From contig NW_014040549.1 of assembly GCF_001186125.1 (NCBI RefSeq), positions 230,319 through 271,893 of the forward strand: a stretch of 41,575 bases of DNA, in the 5' to 3' direction. A program made the translations under genes and the position numbers. Positions 6,728-33,244 of this stretch are shown piece by piece. Below the pieces are notes generated by a model that saw only the letters and a list, made by a program, of their open reading frames with translations, searched no databases and had not been told where the DNA came from. The DNA comes from Sphaeroforma arctica JP610 (lineage: Eukaryota). Numbering within the stretch: the first letter of the stretch is position 1; each line of letters starts with the position of its first letter.

Positions 6728-25288
<18,561 letters not shown>

Positions 25289-25730: not shown

Positions 25731-25917
25731 TGAGCTGAGCTCAGTGTCAGAGCGAACCAAGTTCACTCTACCGGTTTTAGAACCCTACACCAGGTTTTTC
25801 TACAGTGTGCCCACCGGGTCCACCACGCGGACCAAAGTCCCACTCGGATATGCATATATCCAGTTTTCACATCAATAAACCCTTTAGTTCTTCCAAACCA
25901 AAGTTTATAGAGGTTCA
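25731..25917 (+). repeat. Candidate 5' LTR (TG...CA, 187 bp)
   Basis: Ends gttca, 2 nt before the PBS; contains a TATA-like catatat (about 25853) and AATAAA (25874). The left boundary is uncertain because no second LTR is available for comparison. Confidence 0.45.
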
Positions 25918-25919
25918 TA

Positions 25920-25929
25920 GGTTATGGGC
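25920..25929 (+). promoter_or_regulatory. Primer-binding site GGTTATGGGC (half-tRNA-iMet priming, Drosophila copia/Ty5 type)
   Basis: Complementary to the anticodon stem-loop of initiator tRNA-Met (GCCCAUAACC); lies 23 nt upstream of the gag ATG. Confidence 0.8.
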
Positions 25930-27099: not shown

Positions 27100-30000
27100 C
27101 GTCACCAAGACCACCTACAGGTAGACAGTGGTGCTGGTGTCAACTATATACCAGACTATCTTTCACATCTATTAGTCGATACACACACAGGACAGTTTTT
27201 ACTCCGTCTCGCCGACAATTCTACCATCATTATTATACTCAAGCGTGGTATCCTACCCGGTCTTGGTGTTACTTATGTCGGAACAAATGAAATCCAGCCG
27301 TTGGTATCGCAAAACCAACTTCAAGATAACGGGTTCCATCTTATTTTCCCCCAAAATACAAGATAGTGCATTATCAAACACTCGGACAACACATTATACC
27401 TGTCACAAAGTAAGGAAGGGTACCATGTTCTATACCAGAAACTCCATCAATTGACAACACTCTTGTCAACATGTCCCCCTGCAGTCAAGAATGCCACGCC
27501 ACAGCACTCCAAGCAACCACCAACTGCAACGCACCCGACTATTGACAGCACACAGCAGCAAACCAACCAACCAAGCAACTCCTGCTACGCAACGCCCTCC
27601 TGCCGATACGCCACAGCAAACCAACCACGCACCGGCTGTAACGCCACATGTGACACCACAACGCAGACATGCTCCCACCCAACCACCCGCGGGCACACAA
27701 AACACTAACACACAACAACGTGTACACACTCAGCCTGCACCCGCTGCAGATGCAAACACCAGGGCCTCTCAGTCCACCACTCAGCCAGCAACAACAACCC
27801 CTGCATGAGGTACAACACAATCATATGACTCCTACCATCGAGTCATGGGTCATCTCAGCCGTGCAACCACACTAAAAATGGCTAAGAAAGCAGGCATCAC
27901 ACTCACATTCCCACCGACAGTGAACGTTCGCACAGAATAATGGTTTCTTAATAAGAAAGATGTGCTAGACGGTCTCACATACCTGGATGTGGAGTGTGAT
28001 ATCGACCTATGTGCTTACAAGGATAATGAGCAAGCGCCTTTATTTACCGGCCCGGACGGTGGCATCGTCGATGACTGGCGCAAAGTCACAACTTTGTAGA
28101 TTATAAACTATGCTATACTAATCCTAAATGGTCTGATATATCCCAGATGCTGGCTGTTAACGCATCCTCCGGACTAAACTAGTTATGGTTCTCCCACTCC
28201 GTCCTTGTGCAAAATGGTGGAACACAATCATGTCCCGGATACAGTCACAGCCATACATCATACGCAACACAGAGACCACGTTCCTACGCCACGGTGACCA
28301 AGTTGTCGGCAAACCATCATGGACATACACACTTATTGCACTAGTTGGGCCAATACACACGTTCGTATCTCCACAACAAACACTCAACGATGCTATTATC
28401 TTTGTGCGTGCCAATCCTGAGTACCCTAAACACTGCCCTGTCTGCATCGAGGGTAAAATCCAGAACAAGAACGTGCACATGGCACAACCGACTCTCCAAG
28501 GACCCATCCCAGCTAACAGAAATGGATACCGATACACCCTCAATATGATCTTTGACGCCACTAAATTTGGCACTCACTCCCAACTCAAAGCGAAAGAAAA
28601 CATGCACACACACATCCGCAAGTTACTAGTTCAAATACCACGCCAATGAAAACCTCACACCATCGTTGCCGACGGTGACTCCGTTTTCAACAGCCGCAAC
28701 ACTCAAGAGGAGATACTCACAGACAAAATTATCATGAGACAACTCCACCCAACACACTGCAACTCAATGGCCTGGTCGAACGCGCCCATGGTACTCTCAA
28801 CGGACTCACACGTACAGCACTTTTGGATGCCTGTATGCCTTTACCATTATGGGGTTATGCCAAAACTTGGGCTGATTACATCTGCAACACTACGCTTGCC
28901 ACCAAAAACATGCACAACACATCACTTGAATCATTTCACCAATGTAAGCTCATCTGCAATCCCACAGCTCGATTTGTATGCATTGTAGCCTTCCGCCTCT
29001 CCGATGATACACTTAAGAAACAGCACAAGTACAGCACTCGCGTGGTCTTGATGTATTCTTGGGCATGACACCCAACTCTACCACTGACACTTATCGCATT
29101 CGAAATTTGGCTACACAACACATCCTCGACTGCCGCGATATCAGATTTTACACTAGTGAGAATGCTCAATGGTCTTCAGATGGCAAGCGTGCAACACGAT
29201 CAAAAACCCCATCGTCTTACACCATACCGACACTGTGGACAAACCCTGCTACGACCACTAACAATCCACAATCGACCACTGTCCCCTATGTTGGTCCGGT
29301 ACCACCACCAGCTACTGCCCCGCTCCCGGATTCAGTTCCCTCCAATGGTACCAGTCCCAACACTACAACCAATACCGTGCCACCCACCCCCAATATGCAC
29401 GGTCCCACTAACACTGATACAATATCACATACCTTACCACATCCACCACTACCACCAACGCAGTCACCTACCGCAGTACCATTACCTGTCCCCAGCAGCA
29501 CTAATCCTGTCCCTGCCGATCCCCTGAACCAATCCTTTGCCTCCAATGACTCTCAGCACAACAACCATGGCTCGTGCACTTCTCACTCGCACACTTCGTC
29601 GTCCGACTACCACTCATTCTCCGACTCATCCTCTCCACCTGGCCCACCTGCCTGGTGGGCCTCCTCCCCTGATACGTATCAGCATTTTGTATAAAAAAAA
29701 CATGCTGCCCTGGTCGCCCAGCGAGCTAAACAGCGAGCGGCTGCTCATGATTACGAACTTCGCTCTCTACCTTCATCTACAACAACCACCGCCCAGGCTT
29801 CTCCCCCAGTACGCACGCCCCAGCCAACACCACTCTTTCAGGTTCCACGAGTGACACCAGTGGCATTCACTCCAGCTCCAGCCTTGGATCCATACCTTCG
29901 TACGCAGTCCACTCCTCATACCCAACCTGCTAATTTTACCACCCACCCGCCTACTGAATCCGGTCCGGCTGTACCCACCCGCCCGTCAATCGCGACCGCC

Positions 30001-31683
30001 TCGGAAACATCTACTCATGCTGAGCAGATTCTCCCACCTTCCGCCTTCGCCATCACACCTTCTAATAGATCTGAGATCACTCTCCTCGAAATTGCTTCAC
30101 TGCTTGATGACAATGTCCCCAAATCTATCCCAGCCGCGATGAAGCTTTGTGGNNNNNNNNNNNNNNNNNNNNAATGGCACACAGCTATCACAAAGGAATT
30201 CACAGCACACGCAAACAATCACCTCGCTAACAACATATAACAGTCACAGGTACCGCCACATACAAAAATTATACACTCCAAGTATGTATTTGCACGCAAG
30301 CATTATGAACATGGCAACCCAACAATATACAAAGCACGCATGGTCGCACGCGGCGATGAACAAGAAAAAGGAGATTCATATCTTGATACGTATGCCCATG
30401 CTGCTTCCGCCGTCACACTCCGCCTCTTCCTCGCTGCGGCTGCCGCCTCGGGTAAGGCTATTGATCACTTTGACGTTGACTCTGCATCTCTATACAGCAA
30501 ATTAGACACACCAGTTTATATGTAATCCCCTAAAGAAGCTATTGAACTCGGCCACTACTCGCCAGGAACCATTCTCCGCCTTAAACGTGGACTATATGGA
30601 CTCAAACAGTCTGGCCGAATATGGAACTTTGACATCGCTGACAAACTCATGCAACATGGCTTCACGCAGAGCGCCGCAGACGAAAGCATTTGGAACCACT
30701 CCACACGCGACATCTTTGTCCTATTATACGTTGATGAGATTCGTCATCCCACAATGCCATCCACCACAGACAGTACCTGGCTCTACAGCACACTCTCCAA
30801 ACATTACAGTCTCAAAATTCTCGGCCGCGTCACACATCTAGTTGGCATACGAGTTACACAACACAACGGCTGCATCAGTATAGACCAATAAGCGTACATT
30901 GAACGCATGCTCCACGCATTCCAACTTGTCGACGCACATCCTAAACATACACCAGACACTGACACACACCCTGGCCACTTAGACGGCGATCCGGATACAG
31001 GCAAATACCGCCGCCTGCTCGGCGCACTTGGCTACGTTGCAAATATGACATGTCTGGACATTGCTTGCACACTCAATATGCTTGCATCATTCAACACACA
31101 GCCACTTTGAGCCCACTACGAAGTACTTGAACGTATCCTCCTCTATCTGGGAACAACAAAAACACATCGCATCACTTACCGCCCTCTCACCAACCCTAAG
31201 GGCAGAATCGCAGACACATCAGTTGCCTACACAGATAGCGACTGGGCCACATGTCCACTCACACGTAAATCACAATCAGGCATGCTAATATGTCTCAACA
31301 ACTCACCGGTGTTCTGGAAATCTCAACGGCAAAAGGACGTCAGCCTTAGCTCTGGCGAAGCGGAGTATATGGCAGCATTGGAAACAGCACTCACATCGCA
31401 TTGGACTCGCAACATACTTACTGCTCTTCGTTGTGACTCACATCAACACACGTCCCTACACATCGACAACCAGAGTGCCATCATAATAACACTTGGCACG
31501 GACACACCTAAAGGCCTGAAGCACATTGACATCCGTCATCCCTATCTCCGGGACTGTGCTCGCCGCCACATGCTCAACTTACACTACATCAGTACTCACG
31601 ACAACTCCGCCAACTTTCTCACTAAAATCCTCGGTCGCACTAAGCACGAGAAATTCACATCAATGCTACTCAACACAGCATAA
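27100..31683 (+). pseudogene. pol: Copia pol: protease, integrase, reverse transcriptase, RNase H (disrupted)
   Basis: PR VDSGAGVNY (27121). IN HRVMGH (27836) ... CPVCIEGK (28434), LQGP, ADGD, LNGLVERAHGTL. RT YKARMVARG, HFDVDSASLY, LYGLKQSGRIW, LLYVDE. RH YTDSDWA, RKSQSG, SLSSGEAEY, IDNQSAI, KHIDIR. Confidence 0.95.
27935..28350 (+). pseudogene. N6-adenine DNA methyltransferase-like domain (phage Dam/DIRS MT type) embedded in copia pol
   Basis: Reconstructed with 1 stop and 2 frameshifts: E*WFLNKKDVLDGLTYLDVECDIDLCAYKDNEQAPLFTGPDGGIVDDWRKV/NFVDYKLCYTNPKWSDISQMLA/RTKLVMVLPLRPCAKWWNTIMSRIQSQPYII...TFLRHG...GKPSW. Motif-I-like DIDLCA...N at 27998 and NPPY/W-like NPKW at 28120-28131. Confidence 0.75.
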
Positions 31684-31879: not shown

Positions 31880-33244
31880 ATGGCCAGCACAAATCCACTT
31901 ACCCCTCTGACGCAACCCGCCTGGGCCCACGACAAACCATCACTCCGCTTCCCGTACAGTATCTATGCTCACCTGAAAACTGTACACAAAACCACGGGCG
32001 GGCGTACACCCGACCATGTAGCCCTCCGTCAACGTTGTGACAACATCAGGAAGAACTCAACAAAATGTTGGTCCAACAAGGAGATCGCAGCAATGGCCCG
32101 GCGTTAATACTACTACCAACTGGTTATGGGTAAANNNNNNNNNNNNNNNNNNNNNNNNNNNNNNNNNNNNNNNNNNNNNNNNNNNNNNNNNNNNNNNNNN
32201 NNNNNNNNNNNNNNNNNNNNNNNNNNNNNNNNNNNNNNNNNNNNNNNNNNNNNNNNNNNNNNNNNNNNNNNNNNNNNNNNNNNNNNNNNNNNNNNNNNNN
32301 NNNNNNNNNNNNNNNNNNNNNNNNNNNNNNNNNNNNNNNNNNNNNNNNNNNNNNNNNNNNNNNNNNNNNNNNNNNNNNNNNNNNNNNNNNNNNNNNNNNN
32401 NNNNNNNNNNNNNNNNNNNNNNNNNNNNNNNNNNNNNNNNNNNNNNNNNNNNNNNNNNNNNNNNNNNNNNNNNNNNNNNNNNNNNNNNNNNNNNNNNNNN
32501 NNNNNNNNNNNNNNNNNNNNNNNNNNNNNNNGGCTCTGTGCTATGATTGTAACGAATACGTACATGTTTACATTGCTCGACTACCGCACCGACGACTGTC
32601 TCTGCCCTGTCTGCCCCGGTAGCCACAAGTTCACTGCCTGCCACTTTGCCTGCATCCAACAACTGATTCGACGCATCCTGGTAGGCCCGAAACTGCCGCC
32701 CATTGGCCCTGACCTCCTTCAGCAATTACAGAAGTGCCACGACTTCCACGGTATCTGGACCCTCCACGAACACCTTGGATCTTATCTCCAGCATATTGAA
32801 GAACCACCGTACCCTCACCCGTCCCTGACACATCAACAGATGTTCCCCATACCCCGGCTAATCACGCTGTTGAAGTACTACTTCCAAATTTCGGTTCGAA
32901 CCAAATCATCGCGCTTGTTGGTTCCGCCTATGATACTTCCGATCCAGGCCAGCCAACACATACCGAATTCATCCGTGGTCTGGTGCGGCATTGGCTTACC
33001 CCCATCCTCGCTCCTCGACTGGATTATGATGGATAACCTGGTCCTTCTCGGTATTTCGTACTCTGTACTAACCCATCCCGCCGCACTACACGGCGCAGAC
33101 CCGATCCGTACCACAGAGATGGGTACTCTACTTAGTAGGTCAGCAAGCGAATATATGGAACATTCGATAGGGATAATAATATTTATTTCAAAAATGGTAA
33201 GTATGTATGATACAATGTATGAACATATGGTATGGCTCTCATAG
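31880..33244 (+). CDS. Extra ORF downstream of copia RNase H (unknown protein; one in-frame stop; spans an N gap)
   Basis: ORF 31880-32107 continues in the same frame past a TAA (YYYQLVMGK) into the gap. About 237 open codons follow the gap, including DCLCPVCPGSHKFTACHFAC. Composition is C-rich like the element. Confidence 0.5.
32135..32531. other. Assembly gap (N run)
   Basis: Run of n; a second short gap is at 30153-30172. Confidence 1.

What the first reader, a model, noticed from the sequence alone, without database searches (positions are those of the whole stretch)
27833..28450. Ty1/copia retrotransposon with an N6-adenine DNA methyltransferase domain inserted inside the integrase zinc finger
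Seen: the integrase HH (HRVMGH, 27836-27853) and CC (CPVCIEGK, from 28434) halves are about 190 codons apart, whereas a few tens is usual. The intervening DNA translates to W...DIDLCAYKDN...DDW...CYTNPKWSDISQML...LVMVLP...AKWW...F...GKPSW. It is in frame with the HH half apart from one TAA, and its C-terminal part runs in one open frame (28185-28649) into CxxC and the integrase core, so it looks like part of the polyprotein rather than a nested insertion. Established: this motif order (DxxA..N SAM-binding, then NPPY/W, then vlP...WW) is that of phage Dam-type N6-adenine MTases and of the MT domain of DIRS1 tyrosine-recombinase retrotransposons; it is not a standard Ty1/copia domain. Inference: a copia lineage captured an m6A MTase and fused it to integrase, possibly to mark cDNA or insertion sites. 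The NPKW motif is atypical, so it could instead be an inactive DNA-binding module.
Basis: partly seen in the sequence, partly recalled or inferred. Interest (0 to 1): 0.88.

Follow-up and report, generated by a model that had tools for sequence, protein, structure and literature searches.

The report
Copia integrase with built-in adenine methyltransferase
This is a broken copy of a copia-type jumping gene whose integrase carries an adenine-methyltransferase-like domain wedged between the two halves of its zinc finger, a layout shared by a diverged relative, so the domain likely travelled with the integrase and would have marked or recognised DNA during insertion.

Summary
Confirmed. In this decayed Ty1/copia element the integrase HH and CC halves are 580 nt apart; 107 of 120 control copia polyproteins show 17-39 aa. 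The insert, read with X at its breaks, scores 23-25 bits on phage Dam profiles, above every null. A diverged relative, Sphaeroforma arctica gene model SARC_09551, has protease-HH-Dam-CC in one open protein. Its spacing is 194 aa, identity 47%, Pfam Dam E 1.2e-5. So this is a family trait, not a nested fragment. Its predicted fold best matches PCIF1/CAPAM (Z 9.3). Both copia copies read N-P-x-W; 5 of 5 gypsy/orphan relatives keep NPPW. Catalysis and zinc-finger closure are untested. Dam-bearing LTR elements are known from a 2026 preprint, but as Ty3/gypsy only; 'copia' does not occur in its main text. This scan earlier noted a gypsy case in another genome, no copia case. Verdict: a new variant, likely an independent capture that fixes the domain inside integrase.

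The parts
25745..25917 (+). 5' LTR, TG...CA, 173 bp; no second copy in the window
   Evidence: Other contigs match 25745/25764-25919 and diverge on both sides; self-search finds no 3' LTR
25920..25929 (+). Primer-binding site candidate GGTTATGGGC, half-tRNA (hemivirus/copia) type
   Evidence: Sequence. The match to internal initiator tRNA-Met is recalled; ICTV profile PMC8515867 says hemiviruses use a short tRNA segment
25952..26996 (+). gag, broken, with a zinc knuckle near its end
   Evidence: Translation; zf-CCHC weak, E 0.061
27100..27435 (+). Aspartic protease (VDSGA at 27121), broken
   Evidence: 40% identical to P0126 residues 3-105
27836..27940 (+). Integrase zinc-finger HH half, following helix and linker
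   Evidence: best blastx rows are copia controls, weak, E 0.008; 53% to P0126
27941..27943 (+). In-frame stop in this copy
27944..28346 (+). Dam-like (PF05869-type) N6-adenine methyltransferase domain, broken by two frameshifts near 28090 and 28165
   Evidence: Profile scores; 43% identical to the Dam domain of P0126; fold of P0126
27998..28015 (+). Motif I-like DIDLCA, predicted SAM-binding
   Evidence: Aligns to DxDxxA of phage Dams
28120..28131 (+). Motif IV NPKW; second proline replaced (NPIW in P0126)
28347..28457 (+). Predicted helix and CxxC half of the zinc finger (CxxC 28434-28445)
   Evidence: 57% to P0126; helix 338-347 in the model at pLDDT about 50
28458..29100 (+). Copia-type integrase core, broken (stop 28647-28649, frameshift near 28765)
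   Evidence: blastx rows for 28400-29110 are copia controls (best E 2e-8), none of the 3 gypsy proteins; no Pfam rve hit on the pieces
30175..31683 (+). Reverse transcriptase and RNase H, one frame with 4 stops in 502 codons; YVDE at the polymerase motif
   Evidence: RVT_2 E 1.4e-14 and 9.2e-16

Best explanation
A Ty1/copia family carries a Dam-like adenine methyltransferase domain inserted in frame between the HH and CC halves of its integrase zinc finger, and the domain likely stayed on the mature integrase and likely methylated adenines of the element's own new DNA or its insertion site. Shown: the architecture, in this broken copy and in one open relative; Dam-family sequence; conservation on a par with the protease. 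Predicted: the methyltransferase fold. Inferred steps: (1) the domain came by recombination from a eukaryotic retroelement, most simply a gypsy DAM-LTR in the same lineage; (2) it landed in the loop after the HH helix, so the finger can close around it; (3) protease processing cannot free it without splitting the finger, so it enters the integration complex; (4) there it writes 6mA, which host maintenance keeps as a permissive mark, the model the preprint proposes for gypsy DAM-LTRs. The copy in the window is dead.
For: P0126 is colinear with the X-bridged window sequence over HH-CC, 97 of 207 identical with two one-residue gaps; Dam core 43%, protease 40%, protease-HH linker 23-29%. P0130 has the Dam C-half, then CxxC..GK and a copia-type DxGxEF core. 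Three further contigs match the HH or WW regions at 84-87% in 4 of 4 runs, and the 3 listed substitutions in the Dam part are synonymous. N, first P and W of motif IV are among 14 positions invariant in 5 of 5 full-length eukaryotic rows. These are the parts that activate and stack the target adenine (PMC3814359 and PMC7544214, passages). The two copia domains are sisters (99/99) inside the eukaryotic group (100/100 against 19 phage rows). The preprint reports more 6mA and more expression on gypsy DAM-LTR copies in S. arctica.
Against: The second proline is invariant in 17 of 17 phage Dams and 5 of 5 gypsy/orphan rows, yet is replaced by different residues in both copia rows. The preprint's expression of eukaryotic DAMs in Dam-less E. 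coli gave no 6mA. Iyer et al. judge DIRS1 domains likely inactive (PMC4738411, passage). The Pfam score of P0126 (25.5 bits) is under the curated cut-off 28.1. P0126 is a gene model whose DNA I did not see, and it ends about 35 residues after CC, so no complete polyprotein was found. No dN/dS could be computed. The CC region of the model has pLDDT under 50. No DIRS rows were in the tree, so the donor is open.
Confidence: 0.45

Rival explanations
1. The domain is a kept but catalytically dead reader: it binds flipped or methylated adenine or linker DNA and steers the integrase to or away from 6mA-marked chromatin, as chromodomains steer chromovirus integrases.
For: Second proline free to vary in 2 of 2 copia rows. 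It lacks 3 of the 8 columns invariant in phage Dams (T16, P70, R135, read against by eye). Negative heterologous assays and the inactive-DIRS view. A position inside integrase suits a targeting role.
Against: N, first P, W and the DLxA motif are kept at 44% identity. Gypsy DAM-LTR copies are 6mA-enriched, which fits writing as well as targeting.
Confidence: 0.33
2. The substrate is RNA or the RNA:DNA intermediate: the domain methylates the element's genomic RNA or primer inside the particle, as its structural relative PCIF1/CAPAM methylates cap-adjacent adenosine.
For: Best structural match is CAPAM 6IRX (Z 9.3, rmsd 3.5, 133 aligned), followed by rRNA methyltransferases. Iyer et al. place DIRS domains with PCIF1. 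The preprint raises hybrids as a possible substrate.
Against: T4 Dam scores Z 7.8 and the rows between are near ties, so fold does not tell substrate. The sequence family PF05869 is annotated as DNA methyltransferases.
Confidence: 0.12
3. The domain is a tolerated passenger or a one-off nested fragment with no function.
For: No complete copy was found; motif IV is altered; the Dam segment has a weaker strand skew than the rest of the element (GC skew -0.09 against -0.17 to -0.46).
Against: Same insertion, same length, open frame in a copy that is 47% identical. Dam core conserved like the protease and above the linker. Four-fold-site composition does not differ from the rest of the element (p 0.35, 64 sites, low power). 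No DIRS or gypsy RT, RNase H or integrase sequence flanks it.
Confidence: 0.08

Closest known systems
DAM-LTR retrotransposons, above all the ichthyosporean lineage (Fernandez-Moreno et al., bioRxiv 10.64898/2026.05.21.726589; read parts 1-4 of 5 and a term search; supplements not seen)
   Same: LTR element with a eukaryotic DAM-family domain inside pol. The nearest Dam relatives found (P0128, P0133) are protease-RT-RH-Dam-integrase gypsy polyproteins, 26-32% identical to the copia domains.
   Different: All lineages described are Ty3/gypsy-like and were classed by RVT_1; 'copia' occurs 0 times in the main text. In P0128 and P0133 Dam lies before an intact HHCC finger and reads NPPW. Here the host is copia (RVT_2), Dam splits the finger, and the motif is N-P-x-W.
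DIRS1 tyrosine-recombinase retrotransposon MT domain (PMC3783388 passages; PMC4738411 passages)
   Same: PF05869-type domain in a retroelement polyprotein, PCIF1-related. Atlas structural neighbours of P0126 include eukaryotic RVT_1-linked clusters at TM 0.60-0.68.
   Different: DIRS have no protease or DDE integrase and place MT after RNase H. This element has LTR, protease and DDE integrase, with MT inside integrase.
Phage T1/HP1-type Dam methyltransferases (PF05869)
   Same: Motif order W, DxDxxA, W, NP.aromatic, vlP, W; 5 of the 8 columns invariant in 17 phage proteins are kept.
   Different: Stand-alone phage enzymes with an invariant second proline; separated from the eukaryotic rows by a 100/100 branch.
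Cytosine-DNMT retrotransposons (SymbioLINE/DIRS-Dnmt, KnitGypsy-Dnmt3; PMC5890265 passages)
   Same: Retrotransposon capture of a DNA methyltransferase, kept under selection.
   Different: Unrelated C5 enzymes. One later paper mentions DNMT3 in 'LTR Copia and DIRS' elements in passing (PMC12344493); that is a cytosine enzyme, and the paper it cites describes gypsy.

Membership tests
Ty1/copia (Pseudoviridae) | pol order protease-integrase-RT-RNase H | tested here: met
   definition from PMC8515867 (whole text)
Ty1/copia (Pseudoviridae) | RVT_2-type reverse transcriptase | tested here: met
   PF07727 E 1.4e-14 and 9.2e-16; best relatives at most 35% identical
Ty1/copia (Pseudoviridae) | Two LTRs, PBS and polypurine tract | tested here: inconclusive
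   5' LTR and PBS candidate present; no 3' LTR in the window; a high-depth repeat from about 31854 and an N gap at 32135-32531 follow the element
Eukaryotic DAM family (PF05869-like) | Sequence match to the Dam profile | tested here: met
   Window read-through 23-25 bits on own profiles, above all nulls; P0126 Pfam E 1.2e-5, 25.5 bits, under the 28.1 cut-off
Eukaryotic DAM family (PF05869-like) | Class I SAM-dependent methyltransferase fold | tested here: met
   Predicted model of P0126 residues 187-328: CAPAM Z 9.3, rmsd 3.5, 133 aligned; T4 Dam Z 7.8, rmsd 2.9, 107 aligned; Atlas model aligned part named PF05869 in 1 of 10 rows; Foldseek had no row at E <= 0.001
Eukaryotic DAM family (PF05869-like) | Groups with retroelement DAMs rather than phage DAMs | tested here: met
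   7 eukaryotic rows against 19 phage rows, 100/100; the eukaryotic rows were found with the window as query, and no DIRS row was available
Active amino-methyltransferase | Motif IV (D/N/S)-P-P-(Y/F/W) | tested here: not met
   NPKW in the window, NPIW in P0126; consensus from PMC7544214. N, first P and the aromatic are kept
Active amino-methyltransferase | SAM binding and methyl transfer | not testable with these tools
   Needs a biochemical assay
DAM-LTR lineages of the 2026 preprint | Ty3/gypsy-like RT (RVT_1) and organisation | tested here: not met
   RVT_2 and copia order; no gypsy row matched HH, integrase core or RT-RH
DAM-LTR lineages of the 2026 preprint | 6mA enrichment on copies in an AMT1-encoding host | not testable with these tools
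   No methylation data and no whole genome
DIRS1 | Tyrosine recombinase, inverted terminal repeats, RT-RH-MT order | tested here: not met
   DDE integrase and protease flank the domain
Integrase HHCC domain | HH and CC bind one zinc ion | tested here: inconclusive
   All four ligands are kept in the window and in P0126; the CC region is under pLDDT 50 in the model

The most novel reading that the evidence does not exclude
The first Ty1/copia lineage with an adenine methyltransferase, and a DDE integrase whose zinc finger closes around a whole methyltransferase domain. The enzyme cannot be parted from the integrase, so it writes or reads 6mA at the moment of integration, through a non-canonical N-P-x-W site.
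Probability: 0.55. Interest if true: 0.85.

Novelty: new variant of a known kind. Interest (0 to 1): 0.7.

Why it matters
What retrotransposon DAM domains do is open: they look catalytic but gave no activity in E. coli. In DIRS and gypsy elements the domain sits between or behind other pol domains and could act with RT or alone. Here it sits inside the integrase finger, which points to the integration complex as the place of action and gives a small natural construct to assay. It would extend DAM capture to the other LTR superfamily, which a screen built on RVT_1 would likely class as orphan DAMs. It would also show that the HHCC fold tolerates a 135-residue domain insertion.

Tried and rejected
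Pfam and PHROGs on single-frame pieces: no Dam hit. hhalign of pieces against the phage alignment: right register, low probability, 7% and 14%. Word-index homolog searches with P0002: 0 of 62 and 0 of 7 candidates. Viral-contig scan, 0 of 11 stretches; phage tblastn, no match; metagenome scan gave L001, an antisense chance match in a LysR-like gene, rejected. None of 120 copia controls carries the motif or the insert; the best Dam score was 9.3 bits for P0070, with no NPP-like motif. PDB sequence search with the phage profile gave only 4 chance-level rows, top 16.2 bits. Fold of T1 Dam failed, pLDDT 45. Complex prediction of the HH half with the CC half plus zinc: no answer, score 0.04, no evidence either way. 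Foldseek: no row at E <= 0.001. Atlas feature search: no usable hit. A 7-nt repeat at 27924 and 28359 as a target-site duplication: rejected, 2 found against about 0.7 expected, and in different codon phase. RT tree (48 of 121 rows, quick method): the window is a long branch with no supported neighbour. No RNA holder listed. No tRNA gene in the window. Literature searches that found no copia adenine methyltransferase: (listings), and the term search in the preprint; one search was on motif IV and on primer type. Preprint supplements were not seen and may list copia-linked or orphan DAMs.

Full report
The element. The window holds a decayed Ty1/copia retrotransposon on the + strand. It has a 173-bp 5' LTR (25745-25917, TG...CA) that other contigs share and leave on both sides, a primer-site candidate at 25920-25929, gag, protease, integrase, an RVT_2 reverse transcriptase (E 1.4e-14 and 9.2e-16) and RNase H ending at 31683. 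No 3' LTR is in the window. The RT-RH frame has 4 stops in 502 codons. Its best relatives among proteins over 880 aa are at most 35% identical. No whole genome was held.

The observation. HRVMGH (27836-27853) and CPVC (28434) are 580 nt apart. In 107 of 120 control copia polyproteins the spacing is 17-39 aa; 13 gave no pattern match. The segment between is spread over three frames by one stop and two frameshifts. In 4 of 4 runs laid, one contig spans 27700-28900 with no difference, so the breaks are in the DNA; these records may be the source of the window.

Is it a Dam-like methyltransferase? The single-frame pieces hit nothing relevant in Pfam or PHROGs. I built profiles from phage Dam proteins fetched with the tools. 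The segment read with X at each break scores 23.0 bits (P 2.6e-9) on a 19-sequence profile. None of 2000 shuffles reaches this (1485 scored, top 6.3), nor any of 1515 windows of copia controls (top 13.0). On the 17-sequence profile it scores 24.6 bits. With two free frameshifts it scores 27.8, against a top of 10.4 in 68 other windows, of which 2 passed the filters. The same alignment searched against 177,635 PDB sequences gave a top chance score of 16.2.

Is it a family trait? A search of 1.84 billion representatives with the open frame 28161-28649 returned 9 proteins at E <= 0.001; 5 of the 9 are Sphaeroforma arctica JP610 gene models and 4 are unnamed. The best, P0126 (SARC_09551, 394 aa), reads protease-HH-Dam-CC in one protein. 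Its HH-CC spacing is 194 aa and it aligns to the window at 97 of 207 positions with two one-residue gaps: HH region 53%, Dam core 43%, CC region 57%, protease 40%, protease-HH linker 23-29%. Its Pfam Dam match is E 1.2e-5, 25.5 bits, under the 28.1 cut-off. P0130 (SARC_05500) has the Dam C-half followed by CxxC..GK and a copia-type core. In the runs laid, three more contigs match the HH or the WW region at 84-87%; their 30-letter loose ends, translated by eye, go on as homologous protein, and the 3 listed substitutions in the Dam part are synonymous. Whether those contigs are copia was not shown. P0126 is a gene model whose DNA I did not see, and it ends soon after CC, so no complete copy is in hand. 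The host of the window was not determined; from these hits it is likely Sphaeroforma or a close ichthyosporean (inference).

Fold. AlphaFold2 on P0126 with a 13-row alignment gave mean pLDDT 51.6, with 79-90 over residues 241-330 and 86 over 191-210, about 70 for the HH helices and under 50 from residue 355 on. Residues 187-328 match CAPAM/PCIF1 best (Z 9.3, rmsd 3.5, 133 aligned), then DIMT1, ErmE and others; T4 Dam scores Z 7.8. The alignment held gypsy Dam rows, so this model is not independent of them. The Atlas's own model of the protein has neighbours at TM 0.60-0.68 among mostly eukaryotic clusters, one aligned part named PF05869. Foldseek gave no row at E <= 0.001. Whether the zinc finger closes is not resolved.

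Origin. Six of the 9 hits match Pfam Dam, 3 above the cut-off. P0128 and P0133 are gypsy polyproteins in the order protease-RT-RH-Dam-integrase, with an intact HHCC after Dam. In a 26-row tree the two copia domains are sisters (99/99) within the 7 eukaryotic rows, apart from 19 phage rows (100/100); the bootstrap had not fully settled, and no DIRS row was available. HH, integrase core and RT-RH of the window match copia controls and none of the 3 gypsy proteins. So only the Dam domain is foreign. A gypsy DAM-LTR donor is the simplest reading; a DIRS donor is not excluded.

Active site. Both copia copies read N-P-x-W (K in the window, I in P0126); 5 of 5 gypsy or orphan rows read NPPW, and the second proline is invariant in 17 of 17 phage rows. 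It is one of only two positions invariant in the gypsy/orphan rows and changed in both copia rows. The asparagine, the first proline's carbonyl and the aromatic residue are the parts that activate and stack the adenine (PMC3814359, PMC7544214; passages), and these are kept. Activity is therefore open, not excluded.

How it likely works. Shown: an in-frame, conserved Dam-like domain between HH and CC. Inferred: the finger closes around it; the protease cannot free it without breaking the finger; it therefore rides on integrase into the integration complex. I put 0.45 on it writing 6mA on the new DNA or target site, 0.33 on a dead reader that steers integration, 0.12 on an RNA or hybrid substrate, and 0.08 on a passenger.

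What is known. Fernandez-Moreno et al. (bioRxiv 10.64898/2026.05.21.726589; parts 1-4 of 5 read) describe DAM domains in DIRS and in at least four independent Ty3/gypsy-like LTR lineages, one of them ichthyosporean, with raised 6mA on copies and no activity in E. coli. Their RT classification used RVT_1, and 'copia' occurs 0 times in the main text; supplements were not seen. Seven searches listed no paper on an adenine methyltransferase in copia or inside an integrase finger. One paper mentions cytosine DNMT3 in 'LTR Copia' in passing. This scan noted a gypsy DAM-LTR in another genome and nothing like this sequence.

Verdict. Interest 0.7.

Noticed in passing
window:7482-14258 (- strand): A 2258-codon open frame with six RanBP1 domains (Pfam E 5e-193) repeated at about 920-1050 nt spacing; a RanBP2/Nup358-like gene.
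   Followed up: no
window:31854-32130: A repeat with summed contig depth about 1000-fold above the element begins about 170 nt after RNase H, where the 3' LTR would be; no Pfam hit.
   Followed up: partly
window:32534-32890: Cys/His-rich reading frame after the N gap; residues 74-109 of P0127 match 32723-32830 at 67% while its first part matches the integrase CC region, so this sequence may sit next to the family in another copy too. No Pfam hit.
   Followed up: partly
window:16889-18063: Tandem array of a 23-nt unit, about 45 copies; a second array with a 47-48-nt unit at 18565-19043.
   Followed up: no
window:25920-25929 and 32124-32131: The primer-site candidate GGTTATGGG also occurs just before the N gap at 32135, perhaps by chance.
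   Followed up: no
window:33837-34979 (- strand): A 380-codon open frame with an acidic stretch and no convincing Pfam hit.
   Followed up: no
P0070 residues 95-285: Top-scoring control window on the Dam profile (13.0 bits; 9.3 for the whole protein), in the gag region, with no NPP-like motif; taken as chance.
   Followed up: partly
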